A stretch of DNA of 64,000 nt, from assembly GCA_963818475.1 (NCBI GenBank), contig CAWFSF010000006.1:320001-384000 (forward strand). Direction: 5' to 3'. Shown piece by piece: positions 44,800 to 48,170 of the stretch (position 1 is its first letter; every line of letters begins with the position of its first letter). This DNA is from Nitrospirota bacterium (lineage in GTDB: Bacteria > Nitrospirota > UBA9217). Both the position numbers and the translations under genes were made by a program. The notes below the pieces were generated by a model that did not search any database, was not told the DNA's origin, and saw only the letters and a list, made by a program, of their open reading frames with translations.

Positions 44800-45993
44800 T
44801 TAGCCCTGTAGTTCCTTGAATTTTTTGATCATGACCGGCAGAACCTCGAGCACATCACCCACGATGCCGTAGGTGGCAACGCTGAAGATGGGCGCATCGG
44901 GGTCCTTGTTGATCGCGACGATGACATCGGACGACTGCATGCCTGCCACGTGCTGGATGGCACCGGATATGCCGCACGCGATATAGAGTTTGGGGCAAAC
45001 GGTCTTGCCGGTCTGGCCTACCTGGTGCGAGTAGGGGATCCAGCCCTCATCCACTGCGCCGCGCGTTGCAGCAACGGCTCCGCCCAGGACCTTGGCAAGT
45101 TCTTCGAGGAGGTGAAAGTTCTTGATGCCGCCCATGCCGCGGCCGCCGGCCACAATAATGTTCGCTTCGCAGATGTTCACGGTCTCGCCCAGCTCTTCCA
45201 CGGTCTTTATGACCCTGGTGCGGACATCACCGGCCTGCGTGAACTTCACCTCGATGATGTCGCCGGTGCGGGCATCATCGCGCGGAGCCGGCTTCATGAC
45301 CTTGTGCCTGACCGTCGCCATCTGCGGCCGGTGGTTGGGGGAAACGATGGTGGCCATGATGTTGCCGCCGAAGGCAGGCCGGGTCTGGTGCAGGTTGCCG
45401 GTCTCGGGGTCGATATCGAGCATGGTGCAGTCTGCCGTAAGTCCGGTGTAGAGCTTTGCCGCTACCTTGGGAATGAACGAACGGCCGATCGCCGTTGCTC
45501 CGGCGAGAATGATCTCCGGTTTGTGGAGCGTTGCGAGGGTGGTGAGCACGGCGCTGTAGGAATCGTCGTTAAAGTCCTTGAGGGCGGGATCATCGGCCAG
45601 GTAGACGACGTCGGCCCCGTACGCGATAAGGTCTTTGGCCTTCTCCTTGATGCCGTGGCCGATGAATACGGCTGAAAGTTTTGCCTGACGCTTATCAGCC
45701 AGCTTTCTTCCCTCTCCGAGCAGCTCAAGCGCTACGCTTGAGATGCTTCCCTTGTGCTGCTCAGCAAAGACCCAGACGCCTTTGAACGCTGAAAGGTCCT
45801 TTGCTGCAGCAACTGCCTCTTCGCCGGTCCGTTCTATGGCCTTGAATTCGCAGGCCTCGATGCACGCGCCGCAGAGGGTGCAGCTTTCCGTGATAAAGGC
45901 CTTGCCGCTGCGCATCTCAATGGCGCCAAAGGGGCAGACGGAGACACAGGTCTCGCAGCCGGTGCAGGTGTTTGATATGACTTGAACGCTCAC
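44800..45993 (-). CDS. etfA: Electron transfer flavoprotein alpha with N-terminal 2[4Fe-4S] ferredoxin domain
   Basis: [12 protein letters not shown] and [34 protein letters not shown]. Confidence 0.94.
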
Positions 45994-46082
45994 AGGAAGC
46001 TCCTTGTTAATAATGATGCAGGATTCATGATGCATGTCTCGTCGTGAAATATCCTGGATCTTGCATCCTGAATCATGCGTCG

Positions 46083-46868
46083 TTAAATCAACGACTGTTC
46101 TTTCAACTTTTTCACGACCTGCTCCACCTGCTGTTCGATCGTCCCGGACAAAATCTCCCGCTGACCGCGGGGGGCGGGCGGGAATATCCGAACGACCTTC
46201 GTGGGCGAACCCTTGAGGCCGAGCATGTTCTCGTCAGCGCCGATATCCTTGGCCGTCATCGTCGTGACCTTGAGGCTTTTGGCCTTCATTTTGCCCTTCA
46301 GCGACGGCAGCCGAGGCTGGTTGATCTCCTTGACCACGGTTATCAGTGCCGGGAGAGAGGACTCCACCACATCGTATCCGTCGTCCATCATGCGCTCGAC
46401 GGTCATTTTACCGTCGGCTATGGCCGTTATTTTCTTGATGTAGGCGATGAAGGGAATGCCGAGCATGTCCGCGGTCTCGGGGCCGACCTGGGCCGTGTCG
46501 CCGTCGATCGCCTGTTTTCCCGCGATAACGAGGTCGTAGCAGCCGATCTTCTTTATTCCCTGGGCAAGGGTGTAGGATGTGGCCCACGTGTCGGCTCCGG
46601 CAAAAGCCCGGTCCGAAAACAGAACGACATCGTCAACGCCCATGGCCACGGCCTCTTTAAGCGCATCGGCGGCCTGCGGCGGTCCCATGGTCACGGCCGT
46701 CACCTTGCCGCCGTGCTGTTCGCGCAAACGAAGCGCCTCTTCAATGGCGAACATATCAAAGGGGTTGATGATGCTCGGGACACCGTCACGGATGAGCGTG
46801 TTCGTTTCCCGGTTGATCTTCACTTCTGACGTGTCCGGAACCTGTTTGACCAGAACGATGATATTCAT
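46083..46868 (-). CDS. etfB: Electron transfer flavoprotein beta
   Basis: KQVPD, INPFD, GADTWATS, GKQAIDGDTAQVGP, GSPT. Confidence 0.95.
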   Translation of the reverse strand: MNIIVLVKQVPDTSEVKINRETNTLIRDGVPSIINPFDMFAIEEALRLREQHGGKVTAVTMGPPQAADALKEAVAMGVDDVVLFSDRAFAGADTWATSYTLAQGIKKIGCYDLVIAGKQAIDGDTAQVGPETADMLGIPFIAYIKKITAIADGKMTVERMMDDGYDVVESSLPALITVVKEINQPRLPSLKGKMKAKSLKVTTMTAKDIGADENMLGLKGSPTKVVRIFPPAPRGQREILSGTIEQQVEQVVKKLKEQSLI

Positions 46869-47012
46869 CTGCATCTCCAAAATTCCAAATAACAAATCAC
46901 AAATTTCAAATAAACTCCAGATCTCAATTACCCAAATTCGAAACGTTTTATACTTGTTATTTCGATATTGGAATTTATTTGCGATTTGGTGCTTGTGATT
47001 TTGAGCTTGTTT

Positions 47013-48170
47013 TTACTTCTGCCTCGTGGCTTCCTTGATCATATCGAGGGCGATGACATTGCGCTGGATCTGGTTCGTTCCCTCATAGATCTGGAGGATC
47101 TTGGCATCGCGCATCATCTTTTCGACAGGGTACTCTTTCATATAGCCCGAACCGCCCATGATCTGGACAGCGTCGGTTGTGACCTTCATGCCCGTGTCGG
47201 TGGCGAAGAGCTTTGCCATGGCGGAAGCGCGGGAAAAGTCCTTGGCTCCGCTGTCCATCATGCGGGCAACTGCGTAGACCAGCGCTCGTGCAGCCTCGGT
47301 CTGGGTCTGCATATCCGCGAGCATGTGCTGTATGGCCTGGAAGGAGGTGATGGGCTGGCCGAACTGGACCCTGCTTTTTGCAAACTTGATGCACTCGTCG
47401 ATGGCGCCCTGGGCCACGCCCACGCCCTGGGCTCCCACGCCCGCACGGGAGCAGTCGAGGGTCTTCATGGCCACGATAAAGCCCATGCCTTCCCTGGCGA
47501 TCAGGTTTTCCTTGGGGATGCGGCAGTTGTTGAAGATGAGCTCGGTCGTTGATGATGCGCGGATGCCCATCTTGTTCTCTTTTTTGCCGAAGGTGAATCC
47601 GGGCGTGCCTTTTTCCACGATAAAGCACGAGGCGCCGCGGGCGCCCTTGGACTTGTCGGTGATGGCGATGACCGTGTATATCTGTGCCTCGCCGCCGTTC
47701 GTGATCCACTGTTTCGTGCCGTTCAGGACATATTCATTTCCTTCGAGCTTAGCCGTGGTCTGTACGCCGCCGGCATCGCTGCCCGCGTTCGCTTCGGTCA
47801 GGCCGAATGCCGCGAGGTTCTTTCCTGATGCGATGTCGGGCAGATACTTCTTCTTCTGTGCGTCGGAACCGTGGAGCAGAATGGGGTACGTGCCGAGCGC
47901 GTTGGCCGCATAGCTGGTGGAAACTCCGACGCAGGCCTTCGATATCTCCTCGATGGCGATATAGAGATCGAGGCTCTTTTTGCCGAGGCCGCCGTATTCT
48001 TCGGGAATATAAATACCGAAGAGGTCCGCCTGGGCCATTGCCTTCATGATATCCGTCGGGAACTTGTTCTGTTCATCCAACTCTGCCCGCACCGGCACGA
48101 TCTTCTCTACCGCGATCTGTCGTGCGAGATCGCGTATCATGATCTGATCCTCTGTCAACAAATAGTCCAT
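47013..48170 (-). CDS. Short-chain (Bcd-like) acyl-CoA dehydrogenase family protein
   Basis: FGLTEANAGSD, LNGTKQWITNG, KMGIRAS, IYEGTNQIQR. Confidence 0.94.
   Translation of the reverse strand: MDYLLTEDQIMIRDLARQIAVEKIVPVRAELDEQNKFPTDIMKAMAQADLFGIYIPEEYGGLGKKSLDLYIAIEEISKACVGVSTSYAANALGTYPILLHGSDAQKKKYLPDIASGKNLAAFGLTEANAGSDAGGVQTTAKLEGNEYVLNGTKQWITNGGEAQIYTVIAITDKSKGARGASCFIVEKGTPGFTFGKKENKMGIRASSTTELIFNNCRIPKENLIAREGMGFIVAMKTLDCSRAGVGAQGVGVAQGAIDECIKFAKSRVQFGQPITSFQAIQHMLADMQTQTEAARALVYAVARMMDSGAKDFSRASAMAKLFATDTGMKVTTDAVQIMGGSGYMKEYPVEKMMRDAKILQIYEGTNQIQRNVIALDMIKEATRQK

What the first reader, a model, noticed from the sequence alone, without database searches (positions are those of the whole stretch)
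44800..48170. Bifurcating-type acyl-CoA dehydrogenase/EtfBA module inside the FAS II operon: candidate new enoyl-ACP reductase
Seen: acd-etfB-etfA lie co-oriented between fabH and fabD (gaps 73 and 96 bp, no obvious intrinsic terminator). They split the canonical rpmF-plsX-fabH-fabD-fabG-acpP-fabF-rnc operon, which has a perfect TTGACA-17-TATAAT promoter. No fabI, fabK, fabL or fabV is in the window, nor are the thiolase, crotonase and hydroxyacyl-CoA dehydrogenase genes that normally accompany bcd-etf in butyrate synthesis or beta-oxidation. Known: Bcd/EtfAB of Clostridium and Acidaminococcus and CarCDE of Acetobacterium reduce enoyl-CoA with NADH while bifurcating electrons to ferredoxin. 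The motifs here (EtfA TRPAFGGN, EtfB DGDTAQVGP) resemble those enzymes. ACAD-fold enzymes acting on ACP substrates exist (MbtN, FkbI), and in many Firmicutes fabK sits just before fabD. Inference: this module may perform the enoyl-ACP reduction step of fatty acid synthesis and couple lipid synthesis to ferredoxin reduction. Alternatively it may make short acyl-CoA primers for FabH.
Basis: partly seen in the sequence, partly recalled or inferred. Interest (0 to 1): 0.85.

Follow-up and report, generated by a model that had tools for sequence, protein, structure and literature searches.

The report
Flavoprotein enoyl reductase inside lipid-synthesis operon
An acyl-CoA-dehydrogenase/electron-transfer-flavoprotein trio sits in the fatty-acid synthesis operon exactly where relatives carry the enoyl reductase gene, in genomes that lack every known enoyl reductase, so it is probably a new, possibly energy-conserving, way to do that step.

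Summary
On the minus strand lie yceD-rpmF-plsX-fabH-acd-etfB-etfA-fabD-fabG-acpP-fabF-rnc, with the stated 73 and 96 bp gaps and a perfect sigma-70 promoter. The organism is a Nitrospirota bacterium of the Thermodesulfovibrionia type, not a Firmicute.

No FabI, FabK, FabL or FabV was found in its genome, nor in 28 further genomes of the four families that carry this Acd. All 12 sampled relatives without it have FabI or FabK. Three of them carry fabK in the same fabH-fabD slot.

Acd orthologues (59% identity or more) lie in or beside the fab operon in several phyla and gene orders. Paralogues (53% or less) do not. Closed small genomes with the module have FabZ, and FabG is their only short-chain dehydrogenase (SDR). 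Of the two closed genomes tested for them, neither has crotonase or hydroxyacyl-CoA dehydrogenase.

Best reading (0.68): Acd/EtfBA, closest to Bcd-EtfAB and CarCDE, is the enoyl-ACP reductase of FAS II and probably reduces ferredoxin. ACP specificity and bifurcation are untested. Some genomes also carry FabK-like genes, FabL or FabI. My literature searches found no description.

The parts
51061..51089 (-). sigma-70-type promoter TTGACA-17-TATAAT in front of yceD
   Evidence: 12 of 12 matches
50515..51030 (-). yceD (DUF177), head of the operon
   Evidence: Pfam PF02620
50314..50496 (-). rpmF (ribosomal protein L32)
   Evidence: Pfam PF01783
49221..50234 (-). plsX
   Evidence: Pfam PF02504, 387 bits
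48244..49224 (-). fabH (KAS III)
   Evidence: NCBIfam TIGR00747, 452 bits, over its cut-off
48203..48259 (-). weak terminator-like hairpin with T-run overlapping the fabH stop, then a 9-of-12 promoter-like site before acd
   Evidence: a consensus match only
47013..48170 (-). acd: ACAD-fold flavoprotein of the FAS-linked subfamily; proposed catalytic subunit of the enoyl-ACP reductase
   Evidence: Pfam N, M and C domains. Closest PDB chains are the Bcds 5OL2_C (422 bits) and 4L1F_A. Best NCBIfam hit is AcrC, 480 bits, below its 640 cut-off. Orthologues are 85-98% identical within the family.
46083..46895 (-). etfB (small subunit, bifurcating type). Homologues align from residue 10, so the true start is probably the Met at about 46868.
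   Evidence: Pfam ETF. Closest PDB chain is CarD 6FAH_B, 264 bits, against about 101 bits for human ETF beta.
44800..46035 (-). etfA (large subunit) with an N-terminal 2x[4Fe-4S] ferredoxin domain at residues ~15-70 (about 45826-45993)
   Evidence: Pfam Fer4, ETF and ETF_alpha. Closest PDB chain is CarE 6FAH_A, 430 bits, aligned from residue 16 with all eight Cys.
43759..44703 (-). fabD
   Evidence: TIGR00128, 297 bits, over its cut-off
42940..43680 (-). fabG
   Evidence: TIGR01830, 338 bits, over its cut-off
42625..42858 (-). acpP with a canonical DSLD motif
   Evidence: Pfam PP-binding; alignment A2
41261..42556 (-). fabF
   Evidence: TIGR03150, 668 bits, over its cut-off
40579..41475 (-). 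rnc (RNase III). The listed ORF overlaps the fabF end; Pfam matches start at residue 90, so the real start is probably further downstream.
   Evidence: Pfam PF14622, PF00035

Best explanation
Acd-EtfB-EtfA is the enoyl-thioester reductase of this organism's type II fatty-acid synthase. Shown: the gene order, the family assignments, the lack of any recognisable known ENR, and the distribution across genomes. Inferred, step 1: FabZ makes trans-2-enoyl-ACP, and the ACAD-fold Acd, running in its physiological reductive direction like Bcd and CarC, reduces it to acyl-ACP. Inferred, step 2: the electrons come from NADH through the two-FAD EtfBA. Because EtfBA groups with the bifurcating ETFs, and EtfA carries the CarE-type 2x[4Fe-4S] domain, a second NADH-derived electron pair probably goes uphill to ferredoxin. 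Each elongation cycle would then return reduced ferredoxin to an energy-limited anaerobe. The module occupies the operon slot that fabK holds in relatives, which reads as an in-situ non-orthologous displacement.
For: 1. Own genome. The best FabK-model match is 95 bits against a cut-off of 453. None of about 10 SDRs has a FabI or FabL family among its top NCBIfam hits. FabV and FabL were not found. FabZ is present.

2. Phylum sample of 41 genomes. The 29 genomes of families f1, f3, f4 and f11 have FabI in 0 of 29 and FabK over its cut-off in 0 of 29; 27 of the 29 have the Acd orthologue at 72% identity or more. All 12 other genomes lack the orthologue and have FabI (10) and/or FabK at 484-500 bits (3).

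3. Same slot. In G025, G034 and G030 the order is plsX-fabH-fabK-fabD-fabG.

4. Synteny.
- fabH-acd in 23 of 23 family loci; etfB-etfA follows in 21 of 23, and the other two loci end at a contig edge.
- 38 of the best 80 loci from a public scan have acd beside FAS II genes. These come from records labelled Nitrospirota, Thermodesulfobacteriota/Deltaproteobacteria, Rokubacteria, Saganbacteria, Omnitrophota and Planctomycetia, among others, and show at least five different gene orders.
- Where acd moved away (G036, G080, G083), etfB-etfA-fabD stayed together.

5. Second phylum, 71 genomes. Orthologues at 59% identity or more occur in 32. Of 30 loci examined, 26 are directly beside plsX or fab genes, and 12 have the order acd-fabD with no etf in between. 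Paralogues at 53% or less are beside FAS genes in 0 of 8. FabI occurs in 1 of 32 against 7 of 39. FabK at 370 bits or more occurs in 0 of 32 against 7 of 39.

6. Closed genomes.
- G065, G116 and G154 each have exactly one PF13561 SDR; G065's is fabG in the operon.
- G065 has no NMO-family protein; its best match is an IMPDH-family protein.
- G116 and G154 have no MDR protein.
- G036 and G065 have no crotonase and only marginal 3HCDH matches of 26-27 bits.
- G036 and G065 both have FabZ.

7. Chemistry. Acd is closest to Bcd, and EtfBA to CarDE/Bcd-Etf, which are complexes that reduce enoyl thioesters. The catalytic-base motif IYEGT is conserved, and E363 is invariant in 35 sequences.

8. In a tree of 88 sequences the 85 ingroup Acds form one clade apart from three paralogues of 44-46% identity from FabK-bearing genomes. 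The clade roughly follows the phyla, and FAS-linked rows sit on all deep branches (FastTree only).
Against: No biochemical or expression data exist. ACP versus CoA specificity is unknown.

The closest characterised homologues act on short-chain CoA esters, whereas an ENR must accept C4 to C16-18.

Complementarity is imperfect.
- G066 has a FabL at 382 bits.
- G091 has FabI.
- FabK-like genes of 222-345 bits occur in 9 of 32 Acd-bearing genomes of the second phylum, and of 260-358 bits in G051, G061, G062 and G064.
- G056 carries an NMO-family gene between acpP and fabF in the same operon as acd-etfBA; G059, whose acd lies beside plsX-fabH, carries one in the same acpP-fabF position.
- Three Bacillota genomes with an unlinked acd-etfBA have FabI.

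An NMO-family protein of about 100 bits is conserved in the window's family.

The FabV searches had no positive control.

The genome is 91% complete with 6% contamination, and most genomes compared are MAGs. Relatives are not independent observations.

A weak terminator-like and promoter-like pair lies between fabH and acd.
Confidence: 0.68

Rival explanations
1. The conserved NMO-family protein (341 aa, G000:C5:228120-229145) is a divergent FabK-type ENR, and acd-etfBA in the operon does something else.
For: FabK belongs to the NMO family. This protein gives 139 bits to Pfam NMO and 90-95 bits to the FabK model. Homologues of about 90-110 bits occur in 23 of 24 family genomes. G116, G154, G027 and G036 each have one NMO protein.
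Against: It lies between purH and a T2SS-type ATPase, with no lipid genes nearby. A 79% identical orthologue exists in G025, which has a true FabK (500 bits) in its fab operon and no Acd orthologue. Of 38 fab-linked genomes, 15 have no FabK-model match at E<=1e-20. The closed genome G065 has no NMO-family protein at all.
Confidence: 0.1
2. Acd/EtfBA works in the oxidative direction as an acyl-ACP dehydrogenase, for example FabX-like backtracking for anaerobic unsaturated fatty-acid synthesis. ETF takes up the electrons, and an unrecognised enzyme is the ENR.
For: ACAD-fold enzymes are dehydrogenases by name, and acyl-ACP dehydrogenases exist (MbtN family; the query gives 90 bits). It would explain co-occurrence with FabK-like, FabL or FabI genes in some genomes, and the NMO gene in the same operon in G056, and in the same acpP-fabF position in G059. 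FabX of H. pylori is a precedent for a flavoenzyme that dehydrogenates acyl-ACP (PMC8626469; seen only as a title and abstract in a search listing).
Against: It leaves FAS II without any ENR in at least 29 genomes of the phylum sample and in the closed genomes G065, G116 and G154. The complementary pattern and the shared slot with fabK point to equivalence with an ENR, not to an accessory step. EtfBA is of the NADH-linked bifurcating type, whose known partners run reductively.
Confidence: 0.1
3. Acd/EtfBA acts on CoA esters and makes short or branched acyl-CoA primers for FabH.
For: It lies next to fabH. Its closest characterised relatives use CoA esters.
Against: G036 and G065 have no crotonase and no real 3-hydroxyacyl-CoA dehydrogenase to supply enoyl-CoA. 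Several arrangements lack fabH beside acd: plsX-acd-fabD in 7 of the 30 loci, and fabF-acd in L110, L116, L121, L123, L124 and L126. It does not explain the missing ENR or the complementarity with FabI and FabK.
Confidence: 0.06
4. An ordinary butyrate or beta-oxidation Bcd/Etf that happens to sit in the operon, or an unrecognised SDR-type or MDR-type ENR (FabL2, FabMG, MECR-like) does the ENR step.
For: The own genome has FadB-like and crotonase genes elsewhere, plus a second FabG-like SDR. The review PMC9260719 shows that metagenomes have yielded unexpected SDR ENRs.
Against: The linkage recurs in many phyla and gene orders. No thl, crt or hbd genes flank any of the 11 loci whose neighbours were scanned. 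Only one SDR, FabG, exists in G065, G116 and G154. G116 and G154 have no MDR protein, and the own genome has only a marginal one.
Confidence: 0.06

Closest known systems
Butyryl-CoA dehydrogenase/EtfAB of Clostridioides difficile (PDB 5OL2) and Acidaminococcus fermentans (4L1F, 4KPU)
   Same: ACAD fold plus a two-FAD ETF. These are the best PDB matches for Acd (422 and 401 bits) and strong matches for EtfA and EtfB. The IYEGT catalytic motif is conserved. They reduce an enoyl thioester with NADH while reducing ferredoxin; the function is from my own knowledge of the family.
   Different: Here there is no thl-crt-hbd context. The module is embedded in the FAS II operon. EtfA has an extra ferredoxin domain. 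Acd lacks the one-residue insertion in the residue 55-135 stretch that the Bcd, SCAD and CarC chains show, and is gap-free against MCAD chains. The presumed substrate is ACP-bound and of all chain lengths.
Caffeyl-CoA reductase CarCDE of Acetobacterium woodii (PDB 6FAH)
   Same: EtfA is closest to CarE, including the N-terminal 2x[4Fe-4S] domain with all eight Cys (430 bits). EtfB is closest to CarD (264 bits).
   Different: Acd matches CarC less well (317 bits) than it matches Bcd. The pathway context is lipid synthesis, not phenylacrylate respiration.
FabK (FMN-dependent enoyl-ACP reductase II)
   Same: It occupies the same operon position: plsX-fabH-[fabK]-fabD-fabG in G025, G034 and G030, against plsX-fabH-[acd-etfBA]-fabD-fabG here. 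Within the phylum its distribution is complementary to the module's. It is a flavoprotein ENR.
   Different: The fold is unrelated: a TIM-barrel NMO family against ACAD plus ETF. FabK is one polypeptide, against three genes here, and has no ferredoxin link.
Acyl-ACP dehydrogenases of the ACAD fold (MbtN family) and FabX of Helicobacter pylori
   Same: They are precedents for flavoenzymes that handle ACP-bound acyl chains at the alpha-beta bond.
   Different: The MbtN model gives only 90 bits against a cut-off of 700. Those enzymes oxidise. FabX is NMO-family with a [4Fe-4S] cluster (PMC8626469; title and abstract from a search listing only).
Acryloyl-CoA reductase AcrABC of Clostridium propionicum
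   Same: It gives the best NCBIfam models for all three subunits.
   Different: All three scores are below the equivalog cut-offs: 480 against 640, 247 against 475, and 366 against 600.

Membership tests
Bcd/EtfAB-CarCDE type (bifurcating enoyl-thioester reductase complexes) | ACAD three-domain subunit with the catalytic Glu in the C-terminal YEG motif | tested here: met
   Pfam N, M and C domains. IYEGT aligns with the Bcd chains. E363 is invariant in 35 orthologues.
Bcd/EtfAB-CarCDE type (bifurcating enoyl-thioester reductase complexes) | EtfA and EtfB belong to the bifurcating (two-FAD, NADH-binding) group, not to the respiratory ETF group | tested here: met
   By similarity only. EtfA scores 430 bits to CarE and 321 to 4KPU_A, against 157 to human ETF alpha. 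EtfB scores 264 to CarD and 236 to 5OL2_B, against 101 to human ETF beta.
Bcd/EtfAB-CarCDE type (bifurcating enoyl-thioester reductase complexes) | CarE-type N-terminal 2x[4Fe-4S] domain on EtfA | tested here: met
   Pfam Fer4 families at residues ~15-70. All eight Cys align with CarE.
Bcd/EtfAB-CarCDE type (bifurcating enoyl-thioester reductase complexes) | NADH-dependent reduction of an enoyl thioester coupled to ferredoxin reduction | not testable with these tools
   Needs an enzyme assay.
Bcd/EtfAB-CarCDE type (bifurcating enoyl-thioester reductase complexes) | Pathway context that supplies an enoyl-CoA (thl, crt and hbd, or a CoA transferase) | tested here: not met
   None was found among the 38 window ORFs scanned or in the neighbours at 11 related loci. 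Crotonase is absent from the closed genomes G036 and G065.
Acryloyl-CoA reductase AcrABC (NCBIfam equivalogs) | Score over the curated cut-off | tested here: not met
   480 against 640, 247 against 475, and 366 against 600.
FabI / FabL (SDR enoyl-ACP reductases) | A match to NF005717 at the level a true FabI gives, or to NF005975 over its cut-off, anywhere in the genome | tested here: not met
   No FabI-model match at E<=1e-30. No FabL-model match at E<=1e-55. No FabI or FabL family is among the top hits of the genome's SDRs. Controls rang in E. coli, B. subtilis and others.
FabK | A match to TIGR03151 at or near its 453-bit cut-off | tested here: not met
   The best match is 95 bits. True FabKs of relatives score 484-500 bits.
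FabV | A match to NF010177 or PF12241 | tested here: inconclusive
   No match, but no control genome rang, so the search has no positive control.
Acyl-ACP dehydrogenase MbtN | NF037942 over its cut-off | tested here: not met
   90 bits against 700.
FAS II operon member (functional module) | Conserved co-oriented linkage with fab genes across distant lineages | tested here: met
   23 of 23 family loci. 38 of 80 public loci. 26 of 30 loci in a second phylum. Paralogues 0 of 8.
FAS II operon member (functional module) | Co-transcription with fabH and fabD | not testable with these tools
   No RNA run holding the stretch was listed.

The most novel reading that the evidence does not exclude
A further class of bacterial enoyl-ACP reductase, mechanistically unlike the others: an ACAD-fold flavoprotein driven by a bifurcating, ferredoxin-domain-bearing EtfBA. 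It is housekeeping in Thermodesulfovibrionia, in many Desulfobacterota-type bacteria, in Omnitrophota and in other anaerobic phyla. It returns one reduced ferredoxin per elongation cycle, so membrane-lipid synthesis becomes partly energy-conserving.
Probability: 0.45. Interest if true: 0.92.

Novelty: new variant of a known kind. Interest (0 to 1): 0.82.

Why it matters
The enoyl reduction step of FAS II has a short list of known enzymes. The 2022 review PMC9260719 names FabI, FabL, FabL2, FabI2, FabMG, FabK and FabV. Its text contains no mention of acyl-CoA dehydrogenase, ETF or ferredoxin.

If this reading is right, four things follow.
- It fills the missing ENR in whole anaerobic lineages.
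- It would be a case of flavin-based electron bifurcation wired into an anabolic housekeeping pathway. I found no description of such a case.
- It changes energy budgets for sulfate reducers and other energy-limited anaerobes.
- It warns that 'bcd/etf' genes in metagenomes are not safe markers of butyrate formation or fatty-acid oxidation.

It is directly testable with standard assays.

Tried and rejected
- Complex prediction of two Acd copies with AcpP, using alignments A1 and A2, gave no answer: score 0.00, controls not run. I do not use it either way.
- RNA evidence. No RNA holder of the stretch was listed. Laying four runs gave only a handful of partial reads, so there is no information on transcription.
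- Literature. Searches found nothing on an ETF-dependent or ACAD-type enoyl-ACP reductase. Subscription journals and the supplements of the review were not visible.
- Chain-length lead. Residues 55-135 of Acd align without gaps to MCAD chains, while the Bcd, SCAD and CarC chains carry one extra residue. The MCAD cavity-floor residues Q95 and E99 (recalled from the literature, not from a call) map to S84 and the invariant A88. C. difficile Bcd also has small residues at these positions, so this stays only a weak hint of a deeper pocket.
- FabV searches (PF12241, NF010177) never rang in any control, so they are weak negatives.
- I considered that the 2495-aa megasynthase ORF with NMO-type ER-like stretches (G000:C6:~1402455-1409507) might supply the ENR. 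I rejected it as a general answer because relatives lack it; I did not study it further.
- In G065 the weak NMO match turned out to be an IMPDH-family protein.

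
Full report
WHAT IS THERE

All genes of the finding lie on the minus strand. In order of transcription they are yceD, rpmF, plsX, fabH, acd, etfB, etfA, fabD, fabG, acpP, fabF and rnc; coordinates are in 'parts'. 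FabH, FabD, FabG and FabF pass their NCBIfam cut-offs.

Acd (385 aa) has the three ACAD domains. EtfA (411 aa) has an N-terminal 2x[4Fe-4S] domain followed by ETF and ETF_alpha. The gaps of 73 and 96 bp, the perfect TTGACA-17-TATAAT promoter at 51089-51061, and the two quoted motifs are all confirmed.

A weak terminator-like hairpin with a T-run overlaps the fabH stop, and a 9-of-12 promoter-like site precedes acd. An internal start of transcription therefore cannot be excluded.

The window is G000:C6:320001-384000 of a 4.66 Mb, 7-contig genome that is 91% complete with 6% contamination. The nearest public records are labelled Nitrospirota or Thermodesulfovibrionia.

WHAT THE PROTEINS ARE

Acd is closest to the butyryl-CoA dehydrogenases of the bifurcating Bcd/Etf complexes: 5OL2_C at 422 bits and 4L1F_A at 401 bits. 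CarC follows at 317 bits. The catalytic-base motif IYEGT is conserved.

EtfA is closest to CarE (6FAH_A, 430 bits). The alignment starts at residue 16 and covers all eight cluster cysteines. EtfB is closest to CarD (264 bits), then to the EtfB of Bcd/Etf, LctB, Thermotoga EtfB and 4KPU_B. Human ETF beta gives only 101 bits.

NCBIfam's best models are the AcrC, AcrB and AcrA acryloyl-CoA reductase equivalogs, all below their cut-offs. By family the module is therefore a Bcd/CarCDE-type complex. It is not an equivalog of any named one.

IS A KNOWN ENOYL-ACP REDUCTASE PRESENT?

In the own genome:
- The FabK model finds at best 95 bits, against a cut-off of 453.
- The roughly ten SDR genes found with PF13561 were extracted and scanned. 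None has a FabI or FabL family among its top hits.
- The model accessions came from scanning E. coli FabI.
- FabI, FabL and FabV models give nothing at the thresholds used. The FabV searches never rang in a control, so they are weak negatives.
- FabZ is present, so the cycle lacks only its reductase.

DISTRIBUTION WITHIN THE PHYLUM

The sample is 41 genomes, including the own genome.
- Acd orthologues at 72-98% identity occur in 27 genomes: the own genome, 22 of 24 in family f1, 2 of 2 in f3, 1 of 1 in f4 and 1 of 1 in f11. The two f1 genomes without it are 65% and 86% complete.
- The 29 genomes of these four families have FabI in 0 of 29 and FabK over its cut-off in 0 of 29. The highest FabK-model scores among them are 258 bits (G009) and 150 bits (G007).
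- Five genomes at least 96% complete (G014, G021, G027, G035, G036) also have no FabL over its cut-off and no FabV.
- The other 12 genomes (f2, f5-f10) have no orthologue, only paralogues at 46% or less. All 12 have a canonical ENR: FabI at 229-342 bits in 10, and FabK at 484-500 bits in G025, G034 and G030.

These are relatives. The pattern may rest on only one or two evolutionary events.

SAME SLOT

In G025, G034 and G030 fabK lies between fabH and fabD, in an operon otherwise collinear with the window: plsX-fabH-fabK-fabD-fabG, with flanking proteins 56-72% identical to the window's. The acd-etfBA trio occupies exactly that slot here. I take this in-situ replacement as the strongest single argument for functional equivalence.

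SYNTENY

Within the family, fabH-acd is found in 23 of 23 loci and etfB-etfA follows in 21 of 23. The other two loci end at a contig edge. Both f3 loci have the same order.

A scan of one genome per species returned 591 relatives, of which the best 80 were kept. By tblastn with the window's proteins they sort as follows.
- 33 have acd inside or next to a fab operon.
- 5 have acd-etfBA-fabD.
- 15 have acd with etf only.
- 27 have acd with neither.

The orders include fabH-acd-etfBA-fabD, plsX-acd-etfBA-fabG, fabH-acd-etfBA-fabG, plsX-acd-fabG and fabF-acd-etfBA. The records carry labels from several phyla.

In Thermodesulfovibrionales where acd stands alone, it sits in a conserved housekeeping context: a phosphoribosyltransferase gene, a PTPS-family gene, pmbA in three of the four loci, then acd. 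There etfB-etfA remains directly upstream of fabD, in G036, G080 and G083.

The Bacillota and Elusimicrobia acd-etfBA loci, about 70% identical, have no thl, crt or hbd neighbours either.

SECOND PHYLUM

The sample is the phylum of G058: 71 genomes, at least 90% completeness requested. Identities are bimodal.
- 32 genomes have an orthologue at 59-73% identity. Of 30 loci examined, 26 are directly beside plsX or fab genes, 3 are beside yceD-rpmF only, and 1 is beside none. Twelve have acd-fabD without an intervening etf.
- Five such genomes all encode EtfA homologues elsewhere, at 45-56% identity.
- Eight paralogue loci at 53% or less are beside FAS genes in 0 of 8.
- FabI occurs in 1 of 32 (G091) against 7 of 39.
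- FabK at 370 bits or more occurs in 0 of 32 against 7 of 39. FabK-like matches at E<=1e-60 occur in 9 of 32 against 18 of 39.
- FabV occurs in 0 of 71, again without a control.
- Fifteen of the 39 genomes without the orthologue show none of these enzymes, so the ENR inventory of this phylum is not closed.

CROSS-PHYLUM SET

The set is 50 genomes: 38 with fab-linked acd or etf and 12 without.
- FabI-level matches occur only in three unlinked Bacillota.
- FabL occurs only in G066.
- FabV occurs in none.
- FabK is over its cut-off in none. FabK-like matches of 260-358 bits occur in G051, G061, G062 and G064. In 15 of the 38 there is no match at E<=1e-20.
- In G056 an NMO-family gene lies between acpP and fabF in the same operon as acd-etfBA. 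In G059, whose acd lies beside plsX-fabH, an NMO-family gene lies in the same acpP-fabF position.

Co-occurrence therefore exists. It is also known for other ENR pairs.

CLEAN CASES

- The closed 1.14 Mb Omnitrophota chromosome G065 has fabG-acpP-fabF-acd-etfB-(one unknown ORF)-etfA and FabZ. It has exactly one SDR, which is that fabG. It has no NMO-family protein; the best match is an IMPDH-family protein. It has no FabV, no crotonase, and only a 26-bit 3HCDH match.
- G116 and G154 are closed genomes of about 1.8 Mb. Each has one SDR, no MDR protein and no FabI, and each has one NMO protein.
- G036 is closed at 2.4 Mb. It has no crotonase.

No known ENR class is common to all of these genomes. 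The Acd orthologue is.

THE NMO-LIKE RIVAL

The 341-aa NMO-family protein of the own genome lies between purH and a secretion ATPase. It has a 79% identical orthologue in G025, which carries a true FabK and no Acd orthologue. It therefore has some other conserved role.

TREE

A FastTree of 88 Acd sequences puts the 85 ingroup rows in one clade, apart from three paralogues of 44-46% identity from FabK-bearing genomes. The clade roughly follows the phyla, and FAS-linked rows sit on all deep branches. This fits an old, mostly vertically inherited housekeeping gene whose linkage was later loosened in some lines. Characterised Bcd sequences could not be added, so the outer boundary of the subfamily is not fixed.

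MECHANISM

Shown: gene content, order, family assignments and distribution.

Inferred: FabZ's product trans-2-enoyl-ACP is reduced on Acd's FAD. The electrons arrive from NADH through EtfBA. Because EtfBA is of the bifurcating type and carries the CarE-like iron-sulfur domain, ferredoxin is probably co-reduced.

Use of ACP rather than CoA is inferred from the lack of any enoyl-CoA source in G036 and G065, and from the operon. It is not demonstrated.

NOVELTY

Nine literature searches, and the 2022 ENR review (abstract, outline, section 9 and a term search of its text), show no ACAD/ETF-type ENR. Subscription journals and supplements were not searchable.

I rate it a new variant of a known kind. 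The machine is a Bcd/CarCDE-type complex. Its place and presumed substrate in FAS II are new.

VERDICT

- About 0.9 that the module is functionally part of FAS II.
- 0.68 that it is the enoyl-ACP reductase.
- About 0.45 that it also bifurcates electrons to ferredoxin.

Noticed in passing
window 52634-53224 (-), with neighbouring ORFs at 53052-53696 and 53704-54018: The 196-aa ORF matches only the C-terminal part (positions ~263-418) of BioA transaminase models. bioA may be split or frameshifted here, or mis-assembled.
   Followed up: no
window 30001-32000: A low-GC island (0.444 against about 0.56 around it) holds two ORFs (30321-30875 and 31114-32307, both minus strand) with no NCBIfam family at E<=1e-25.
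   Followed up: no
window 17217-21386 (-): A 1389-aa ORF with no NCBIfam family at E<=1e-25 lies next to PilB/GspE-like (21932-23653) and GspF/PilC-like (23650-24840) genes.
   Followed up: no
G000:C6:~1402455-1409507 (outside the window): A 2495-aa open frame has two NMO/FabK-like enoyl-reductase-type stretches and an SDR stretch. It looks like a PKS or PUFA-synthase-like megasynthase. G014 and G009 have similar long frames.
   Followed up: no
L110:10040-10888 and L123:10101-10919; L116:9164-9934: In the Omnitrophota and Planctomycetia loci a 272-282 aa ORF with no Pfam family lies between etfB and etfA. In L116 a DUF1189 gene lies between acd and etfB. These may be extra subunits or passengers.
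   Followed up: partly
L096:13167-14147 (G056) and L135 (G059): An NMO-family gene (178 bits to Pfam NMO, about 195 bits to the FabK model) sits between acpP and fabF. In G056 this is in the operon that also holds acd-etfBA; in G059 acd lies beside plsX-fabH. It could be a second ENR or a FabX-like enzyme.
   Followed up: partly
genomes G096, G104, G106, G107, G110, G111, G113, G120, G122, G124, G127, G147, G150, G152, G157: Fifteen of the 39 genomes of the second phylum sample that lack the Acd orthologue also show no FabI, no FabK-like match at E<=1e-60 and no FabV. Their enoyl reductase is also unaccounted for.
   Followed up: no
L044 (G003) and L045 (G009): In these two family genomes the acd orthologue is read in two or three pieces in different frames. 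These are frameshifts or assembly errors in otherwise intact operons.
   Followed up: no
window 40579-41475 (-): The longest rnc ORF overlaps the 3' end of fabF by about 215 bp. Pfam matches begin at residue 90, so the real start is probably internal.
   Followed up: no
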